Below are positions 48,451 to 50,228 of a stretch of DNA of 64,000 nucleotides, piece by piece. The notes beneath the pieces are model-generated. The model did not search any database, had not been told where the DNA came from, and was given only the letters and a program-made list of their open reading frames with translations. The stretch's first letter is position 1. Each line of letters begins with the position of its first letter. The stretch is from Torpedo marmorata. Lineage: Eukaryota. A program made the translations under genes and the position numbers. Where the stretch lies: contig OZ360238.1 in NCBI GenBank assembly GCA_977017645.1, positions 26,536,001-26,600,000 of the forward strand, written 5' to 3'.

Positions 48451-49635
48451 ATGGAAGTAGTTCTGAGGAACCTCAATATTATTCACCTGCATAACGATAG
48501 CATGGCTGGCTGGCAGTTCCACACATAGTCTCTTGTAAACCACCTCCTTCAGTCTGGGAATGCCAAAGGTAATCACAGTTTCCAAACATCAGCAATCCCA
48601 CTCTCATTAGCATTTGCCTTCTTTTTCTACAAATCATGAAAGTGACTTCAAGAACTATCTGGTACACTATTTAAAAGTCTGACTCCATTTGGAAGGATCT
48701 CCAATTAGTGAATATTTGTGCAAACTAAACAGAACTGTTTTCACAATTATTTCAGAAATAACACAGAACAAAACTTATTAATATTGATTGTAAATTCCCA
48801 GTGAGTGTTCAAAAGACAGTAAGTATCAACATTAAACGTACTGGATCTTAAAAGCATTTATTTATTCTGGTCTTCTCTGAAATCAGTCCACAGATCTCTC
48901 GCAGACGCACATTTGAAGTGGCTACCTTTACTCCACAGAGACTACAATAACCTTTTCCCGTCAGACAAAGAAAACCTTCCTATCCATCTGATTTCTAAGG
49001 TTGTATTCTGAATATTATTCTTCAGCAGATTTTTACAGCATTACCACAGCAACGTTTATCAAAACAATCTAGGTTATTTTTGAAAACCTCTGACTTCAAC
49101 CTCATTTCATTTTTTCCAAATGCCCACAGGTGGAAGGATTCAGCTGCAGGCTTTACTGGTAAGTGTCTGCTTCTTCTATCTATGAAACCGGCTGCCTCAA
49201 ATAGTGGGGTTCACACACTAACTCTGATCTCAAGTATATTTTGCATCAATTGACAGTATCTAGAAGGGTAATTGATTAATTCTGAATCTTTCCCAGTAAA
49301 AAAAAATAGGCATTTTAACACAATAAACAAGGGTTGGATAAGCACTAAATTCAAAGGTGAAGTGGCTGAAGCATTTCAGGATTCATGTTTGACTGCACTT
49401 TCTATGTCCACAGGGACCAATCTTCTCCTGCCCTCAGTCCCTTAAAGCCCTTGGCTTGTGAACAGATCCCTCATAGAGATGGGGCAGACTCTTTTGCATG
49501 GAGCTGGATTTCTTTTAAATGCCCTTTTAACAAGCATCCGATTGAACCCAAAGACCCACTTGTACCTCTTCTTAAGCTCTAGGTCAGGATGAGAGCAACA
49601 TTTTCAGAATTGAAAAAACATTACCCTATTTCTAA

Positions 49636-49939
49636 TAAAATCACAATGCTGGAGAAACTCAGCAGGTCAAACAGTGTACTTTATGTAGCAAAGATAAAGA
49701 TGCATAACCATTGTTTCAGGCTTGAGCCCTTCATCAAGGTATGAGCAAAATGTAGGCTGGCGCCCGCCTCGGGCGCCTGCCTACATTTTGCTCATACCTT
49801 GATGAAAGGCTCAAGCCTGAAACGTTGATTATGTACCTTTATCTCTGCTACATAAAGTACACTGTTTGACCTGCTGAGTTTCTCCAGCATTGTGGTTTTA
49901 CTCCAACAACAGTGTCTGCAGACTTTCGTGTTTTACTCC
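49636..49939 (+). mobile_element. Palindromic Penelope-type non-autonomous element
   Basis: ~131-bp arms (49636-49766 / 49770-49900) around a 3-nt loop; 39-nt unpaired 3' tail; perfect 14-bp TSD TACCCTATTTCTAA at 49622-49635 and 49940-49953. Confidence 0.85.
49793..49833 (+). ncRNA. Minimal hammerhead ribozyme-like motif (decayed copy)
   Basis: CATACC-TTGATGA-A-AGGCT CA AGCCT-GAAAC-GTT-GATTATG. Confidence 0.5.
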
Positions 49940-50228
49940 TACCCTATTTCTAACTCTGGTTTGATTTAAATGGACAGTTCTCAACTGTGGTGTTTAAAAG
50001 AACTCCTTAATTTTTTAATAATTTAAAGACTGCCAATAGAACAAAGCAATGAAAATAAAAATAAAATCCTCCAAATCAACAGAGACAGCTATTCTTTAAA
50101 TTGTATTTCAAACGCCTGCTATTATCTTGTCTGAGGTTCTCACAAGTTAGGCCACAGGATGCTTTAGTAACCACAGCAGACACACCACAGACTTAAAAAG
50201 ATAAAGGTATTTATATTTGTTCAACTGT

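What the first reader, a model, noticed from the sequence alone, without database searches (positions are those of the whole stretch)
49622..49953. Palindromic Penelope-type mini-element with a hammerhead motif in each arm, an unpaired tail and a long TSD
Seen: a ~265-nt near-perfect fold-back (131-bp arms, 3-nt loop CCT), then a 39-nt tail on one side only, flanked by a perfect 14-bp TSD. By-eye consensus of the arms here and at 22554 and 61290: CATACC-TTGATGA-A-GGGCT CA AGCCC-GAAAC-GTC-GGTTATG. This fits a type-I hammerhead with a C3U core change, an extra A before helix II, a palindromic ACGT in place of helix III, a GUC cleavage triplet and a bulged helix I. Established: Penelope-like elements carry minimal hammerheads in their pLTRs, often thought to act as dimers, and insert as inverted pLTRs with a short 3' extension. 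Inference: this is a non-autonomous, ribozyme-bearing retroelement family that looks like a MITE but moves through RNA. Each palindromic copy places a ribozyme motif on both strands and forms a long dsRNA hairpin if transcribed.
Basis: partly seen in the sequence, partly recalled or inferred. Interest (0 to 1): 0.72.

Follow-up and report, generated by a model that had tools for sequence, protein, structure and literature searches.

The report
Head-to-head Penelope retrotransposon stub
This mirror-image insert is a one-off, very short landing of an abundant protein-coding Penelope-type jumping gene in a layout already described, likely built when both cut DNA strands copied the same RNA end, and its decayed ribozyme motifs are predicted to be inactive here.

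Summary
The fold-back (131-nt arms, 9 mismatches), one-sided 39-nt tail and 14-bp TSD are real. It is not a separate non-autonomous family. Both arms are 5'-truncated copies of the terminal repeat (pLTR) of a very abundant Penelope-like element with RT and GIY-YIG. Its central seam occurs once in 6.2 Gb, and seams of other palindromes vary. Inverted copy, tail and TSD are the published Penelope layout. The minimal hammerhead motif is a real family feature (U3 variant; C3 sister families covary), but this copy has GUU and AAU, not GUC, and the hairpin would mask it. Mechanistic clues: 0 of 52 palindromes carry two tails; arms match by subfamily; at one recurrent seam the tail sits on either arm (16 vs 11), which argues against simple snap-back and for priming from both target strands. 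Short copies stop 33-35 nt before the cleavage site (13 of 90), hardly at it (2 of 90), often after an extra G, suggesting a capped RNA start. This scan noted similar stubs many times before, in this and other genomes. Interest is modest.

The parts
49622..49635 (.). Target-site duplication, left copy (14 bp)
   Evidence: Identical to 49940-49953; only these two occurrences in the window
49636..49766 (-). Inverted 5'-truncated pLTR copy without tail; ends at the tailless 3' site (37 nt before the full end), starts 56 nt before the putative cleavage site
49703..49743 (-). Decayed minimal hammerhead motif (U3; triplet AAU, G16.2 and U16.1 lost)
49767..49768 (.). Seam: two bases that match neither arm's family sequence; this seam is unique in G000
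49769..49900 (+). Direct 5'-truncated pLTR copy, starts 57 nt before the putative cleavage site
49793..49833 (+). Minimal hammerhead motif (U3-G8 wobble, extra A after 9, 4-bp helix II with A-U at 10.1-11.1, ACGU in place of helix III, triplet GUU, mismatch at 1.2)
49901..49939 (+). Tail: the optional 3' extension of the pLTR; in the parent it runs on into the 5' UTR and ORF start
49940..49953 (.). Target-site duplication, right copy
22550..22834 (.). Second, independent head-to-head insertion of another subfamily, different seam, 15-bp TSD with one mismatch
61273..61474 (+). Solo tailless 5'-truncated copy with part of the 3' UTR and a 14-bp TSD (one mismatch); boundaries approximate

Best explanation
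The element is a single insertion of two oppositely oriented, 5'-truncated copies of the terminal repeat of an abundant RT plus GIY-YIG Penelope-like retrotransposon, likely made when the enzyme nicked both target strands about 14 bp apart and each nick primed a short cDNA on the same RNA. One primer would start at the end of the tail and the other about 37 nt upstream (the two fixed 3' ends); both cDNAs would stop early and be joined at their growing ends, and fill-in would give the TSD. The palindrome is then a dead-end product, remade at each such insertion. The hammerhead motif rides along as part of the pLTR and is predicted to be inactive here (decayed, one per strand, masked by the hairpin). 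Shown: identity of the arms, parent, layout statistics. Inferred: the two-ended priming and the inactivity.
For: Parent: at least 15 of 29 best relatives run upstream into a 3' UTR, 7 into GIY-YIG sequence (read by eye); 29 of 30 GIY-YIG loci have the arm about 200 nt downstream; RT in longer copies (below Pfam cut-offs) with full-length RT plus GIY-YIG homologues at 50-59% identity; L343 shows pLTR, tail, then the ORF start; L068 shows the same layout at 5.4 kb. Not a unit family: 1 exact match to the seam (itself) and 2 different seams at 2 mismatches; 603 exact palindromes, 40 spacer lengths among the 50 listed. Layout: TSDs of 11-16 bp in 31 of 52 palindromes against 2 of 300 controls. Two-ended priming: 37 of 52 have one tailed and one tailless arm, 0 of 52 two tails (p about 7e-6); solo copies end at the same two sites; arms agree in subfamily in 36 of 37 classifiable pairs, 15 discordant expected; at one recurrent seam the tail is on the long arm in 16 and on the short arm in 11 of 30, and a snap-back copy could not gain a tail its template lacks. 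In vitro a Penelope enzyme nicks and extends both strands from two internal start sites (PMC11167929, parts 1-2 of 4 read).
Against: No intact single ORF was found in the loci examined. 15 of 52 palindromes do not show the clean tail/no-tail pattern (shorter or decayed arms) and 21 of 52 show no TSD of 11 bp or more. Agreement between arms could also come from later gene conversion. One seam recurs 148 times and is enriched in the youngest subfamily (about 19 of 30), which I cannot fully explain. The priming model rests on genomic end statistics only.
Confidence: 0.8

Rival explanations
1. Same origin, but the inverted arm is made by self-priming (snap-back of the first cDNA or of an antisense template), and the endonuclease resolves the hairpin at the tailless site.
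For: Proposed for Adineta Penelopes (PMC3846280, passages). Arms come from one source. The recurrent seam uses a 5-nt self-complementary stretch.
Against: At that seam the short arm carries the tail while the long arm lacks it in 11 of 30 cases. Solo copies end at the same two 3' sites.
Confidence: 0.12
2. The palindrome is a non-autonomous, ribozyme-bearing mini-retroelement that spreads as a unit through RNA.
For: Another seam recurs 148 times, mostly in one young subfamily; retrozymes derive from PLE pLTRs (bioRxiv 10.64898/2026.07.22.740005, part 1 of 5 and passages).
Against: This element's seam is unique. The recurrent seam occurs in several haplotypes and two subfamily groups with the tail on either side. 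No head-to-tail ribozyme units. The hairpin sequesters the motif. Only 2 of 90 copies begin at the cleavage site.
Confidence: 0.05
3. It is a MITE or foldback DNA transposon.
For: Palindromic shape and small size.
Against: Asymmetric ends, variable 11-16 bp TSDs, variable length, and collinearity with an RT plus GIY-YIG element.
Confidence: 0.01

Closest known systems
EN+ Penelope-like insertions with inverted pLTR, tail and TSD (Adineta Pen2a, PMC3846280; general scheme PMC8557442; D. virilis Penelope PMC2377424; passages read)
   Same: Inverted 5'-truncated copy abutting a direct copy, 30-40 nt tail on one end, variable TSD, partial tandems with pLTR before the ORF.
   Different: Truncation is so extreme that only two pLTR halves remain; TSDs centre on 13-15 bp rather than 8-10; copy number is very high.
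Minimal hammerheads of metazoan PLEs (PMC4209133, parts 1-2 of 4 read; figures and supplements not seen)
   Same: Type I, extra base between 9 and 10.1, G10.1-C11.1, palindromic 15.2-16.2, no helix III.
   Different: Dominant family has U3 with G8 (wobble), not the C3-G8 or U3-A8 pairs named in the text; helix II is 4 bp.
Poseidon element PAc of Anolis (PMC11167929, parts 1-2 of 4 read)
   Same: Two fixed 3' ends bounding the tail about 100-140 nt past helix II; ribozyme cleavage leaves no peak among insertion ends.
   Different: Here the ORF starts 36 nt after the tail rather than inside the ribozyme, and homologues carry the CX4CxxC linker of the Neptune/Nematis type.
Non-LTR retrozymes (bioRxiv 10.64898/2026.07.22.740005)
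   Same: Non-coding, pLTR-derived, hammerhead-bearing.
   Different: Retrozymes are head-to-tail tandem units; this is head-to-head with one motif per strand.

Membership tests
EN+ Penelope-like element | RT with DKG motif and C-terminal GIY-YIG with CxxC inside, in one ORF | tested here: met
   Seen in broken pieces in G000 copies and whole in homologues; no intact copy found
EN+ Penelope-like element | pLTR at the 3' end and again before the ORF in partial tandems | tested here: met
   29 of 30 EN loci; L343; 161 matches running past the tail
EN+ Penelope-like element | Optional 30-40 nt tail at one end | tested here: met
   Bimodal 3' ends
EN+ Penelope-like element | Inverted 5'-truncated copy at the 5' end and variable TSD | tested here: met
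Neptune clade | CX2-5CxxC linker between RT and EN, and placement on an RT tree | tested here: inconclusive
   Motif whole in homologues P0007, P0009, P0013, P0018, decayed in G000 copies read by eye; no tree built, Nematis not excluded
Minimal type I hammerhead | Core C3-U-G-A-N-G8-A, GAAA, UH | tested here: not met
   U3 in 299 of 310 young copies with G8 kept (sample partly chosen on patterns holding the core); left arm here also lacks U16.1; C3 versions exist in sister families, 2,946 matches vs 3 control
Minimal type I hammerhead | Helices I and II supported by covariation | tested here: met
   Across families only: 2.2-1.2 is T-A in 6 and C-G in 5 of 30; A-U at 10.2-11.2 in 5 of 100 listed (by eye). 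None within the family beyond CpG decay
Minimal type I hammerhead | Extra base after 9, G10.1-C11.1, palindromic 15.2-16.2 | tested here: met
   Family majority; partly lost in this copy
Minimal type I hammerhead | Self-cleavage as monomer or dimer | not testable with these tools
   Indirect only: 2 of 90 copies start at the site
MITE | Symmetric termini, fixed short TSD, uniform size | tested here: not met
Non-LTR retrozyme | Head-to-tail tandem units each with a hammerhead | tested here: not met
Non-LTR retrozyme | Circular RNA product | not testable with these tools
   Only contigs were available

The most novel reading that the evidence does not exclude
These stubs record the Penelope insertion reaction: one RNP primes from both nicked strands at two fixed sites of one uncleaved, capped RNA whose start lies on the first base of hammerhead helix I. 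The enzyme runs off that cap, adds a G and jumps, and the genome's most successful family tolerates a wobble-core ribozyme because cleavage is dispensable.
Probability: 0.35. Interest if true: 0.55.

Novelty: new member of a known kind. Interest (0 to 1): 0.27.

Why it matters
The element itself is ordinary. As a population, such stubs bear on two open points in Penelope biology: how the inverted arm and one-sided tail arise, and whether the pLTR hammerhead has to cut. The tail statistics, the flip at a fixed seam and the stop at -33 give predictions that the existing in vitro system could test directly. Roughly 10^5 such hairpins (rough extrapolation from 9 in 600 kb) would also be a large potential source of double-stranded RNA, untested here.

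Tried and rejected
Rfam: no match at gathering score in the window; at E up to 10 no hammerhead family, only hairpin-driven miRNA hits below threshold (mir-610, 51 bits vs 90). Idea that the two arms come from two different RNAs: rejected, 1 of 37 classifiable pairs discordant, though a few looked mixed by eye upstream. Within-family covariation: none; the lower substitution rate of core positions there is not used because samples were partly chosen on the core. Cleavage-site peak among 5' ends: not found. Cap-G signal is weak genome-wide: G 42, T 35, A 23 among 100 listed, about 13 explained by microhomology (by eye); the control position gave 962 matches against 1,248, with 27 of its 100 listed from one seam and 14 not truncated. 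Sequencing runs: no RNA holder listed, only contigs, so starts, editing and small RNAs could not be examined. Lunse et al. on PLE hammerhead variants is not held; only its title and a review passage were seen, and it or unseen supplements of PMC4209133 may already list U3-G8. Searches for C3U, Penelope with twin priming, Penelope with untemplated cap, and Penelope palindromes in shark found nothing relevant. No structure prediction or tree was run.

Full report
Observation. The window holds a fold-back with arms 49636-49766 and 49770-49900 (131 nt, 9 mismatches), loop CCT, a 39-nt extension on the right only, and an exact 14-bp direct repeat on both sides. As RNA it folds into one hairpin of -224.7 kcal/mol, z -34.7. 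The 61.3-kb copy is a solo arm with its own TSD; the 22.55-kb copy is a second palindrome with another seam.

Parent. G000 is a 6.2-Gb genome; earlier AI notes call it a ray, which I did not test. Of the 29 best non-self matches to arm plus tail, at least 15 continue upstream into a pyrimidine-rich 3' UTR and 7 into coding sequence (by eye). That sequence translates to a GIY-YIG domain with CxxC between the two motifs (Pfam E 0.011) and has 224,577 first-look candidates in the genome. In 29 of 30 such loci the arm follows about 200 nt downstream. Longer copies carry RT with a DKG motif (Pfam scores below cut-off). The nearest full-length proteins are 700-950 aa RT plus GIY-YIG proteins at 50-59% identity, four of four inspected with a CX4CxxC linker, the mark of Neptune and Nematis (PMC8557442, passages). 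In L343 the repeat and tail run straight into a 5' UTR and an ATG 36 nt later, whose frame matches the N-termini of those proteins. L068 shows the same inverted layout at 5.4 kb. The arms are therefore the pLTR of a Penelope-like element. Sixty fixed-position 10-kb stretches held 76 arm hits and 9 head-to-head pairs, roughly 8x10^5 arms and 10^5 palindromes if extrapolated.

Not a unit family. A 35-nt pattern across this element's seam matched only itself exactly, plus two different seams at 2 mismatches. A pattern for two facing motifs gave 603 exact palindromes; the 50 listed have 40 different spacer lengths from 0 to 91. Ninety-three copies anchored downstream of the motif have 5' ends spread over more than 570 nt. 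For those 50 palindromes and the two in the window, TSDs of 11-16 bp were found in 31 of 52, against 2 of 300 shuffled flank pairs. Inverted 5'-truncated copy, one-sided 30-40 nt tail and variable TSD are the published layout of EN+ PLEs (PMC3846280 and PMC8557442, passages).

How the palindrome likely forms. 3' ends fall at two sites, full tail or about 37 nt shorter, in solo copies as well; contigs of three other coded organisms show loose ends at the same two places. Of 52 palindromes, 37 have one of each, 0 have two tails, 1 has two tailless ends, and 14 have at least one shorter or unalignable arm (p about 7e-6 for no double tail). Arms agree in subfamily in 36 of 37 classifiable pairs of 43 scored, 15 discordant expected, and share private variants. 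One seam built on a 5-nt self-complementary stretch recurs 148 times. In 30 of these the tail lies on the long arm in 16 and on the short arm in 11, across several haplotypes. A snap-back copy cannot gain a tail its template lacks, so two separately primed cDNAs joined by microhomology fit best. This agrees with the in vitro finding that a Penelope protein nicks and extends both strands from two internal sites bounding the tail (PMC11167929) and resembles L1 twin priming (recalled). It remains an inference. Against it: gene conversion could also match the arms, and the enrichment of that seam in the youngest subfamily (about 19 of 30) is unexplained.

The hammerhead. The family motif has the traits listed for minimal PLE hammerheads (PMC4209133): extra A after position 9, G10.1-C11.1, palindromic 15.2-16.2 (numbering recalled). 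Position 3 is U in 299 of 310 young copies with G8 kept; part of that sample was chosen on patterns holding the core. C3-G8 is a core pair, and the natural alternative described is U3-A8 (PMC3088659, passage), so activity is likely reduced. Sister families with C3 occur 2,946 times against 3 in the reversed control and show compensatory pairs in helix I and helix II, so the motif is real at the level of the group. There is no covariation inside the family and no Rfam hammerhead hit. In the palindrome each strand has one sense motif, fully paired with its antisense, which rules out the dimer in cis.

Where short copies stop. Of 90 well-aligned anchored copies (3 of 93 dropped), 13 start 33-35 nt before the cleavage site, 1.7 expected (p 4e-8), and 2 start at the site. 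That position is the first base of helix I in an initiator-like context (consensus recalled). Among 30 copies starting there, 9 were solo with a detectable TSD, and 7 of those 9 have a G between TSD and element (about p 0.008 by hand at one-third chance), as expected from copying a cap (recalled). Among 30 copies running past the tail, 17 jump back to a pLTR or 3' end 110-190 nt later, 5 of them to that same position (by eye). The genome-wide counts are weaker. The focal arms extend to -56 and -57, so they were copied from a pLTR with 3' UTR upstream, not from such an RNA start.

Verdict. A real but ordinary product of a known class. The scan has 72 matching notes in at least 10 genomes and 22 in this genome. 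The mechanistic clues are testable and I found no paper stating them in four searches, but the relevant ribozyme-variant paper was not available.

Noticed in passing
L344-L373 (G000, 161 matches): 17 of 30 copies that run past the tail continue only 110-190 nt into the ORF start and then jump to a truncated pLTR, forming mini-tandems; the landing zone overlaps the region where the Anolis protein binds its RNA.
   Followed up: partly
L404-L433 (148 matches): One palindrome seam recurs often and is enriched in the youngest, nearly undiverged subfamily; tail on either arm.
   Followed up: partly
L081, L095, L173: Palindromes with 0-1% difference between arms: a very young subfamily, suggesting recent activity.
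   Followed up: no
L375-L403: Several older PLE families with the canonical C3 core and different helix I sequences share the downstream part of the pLTR.
   Followed up: partly
window 11767-17285: Large complex inverted repeat (about 1.2 kb arms, 95% identical, with further rearranged copies) of another repeat family.
   Followed up: no
window 33068-33383 / 37727-38042 and 54708-54880 / 55657-55827: Pairs of inverted repeats of 316 and 170 nt at 93-97% identity, possibly ends of DNA transposons.
   Followed up: no
window 31821-31938, 41238-41377, 50505-50671: Older solo pLTR copies of related families at 73-77% identity.
   Followed up: partly
L068:3740-4560 and L315-L343: The parent ORF has a roughly 100-nt repeated block and a long proline-rich low-complexity insert before the RT that its homologues lack.
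   Followed up: no
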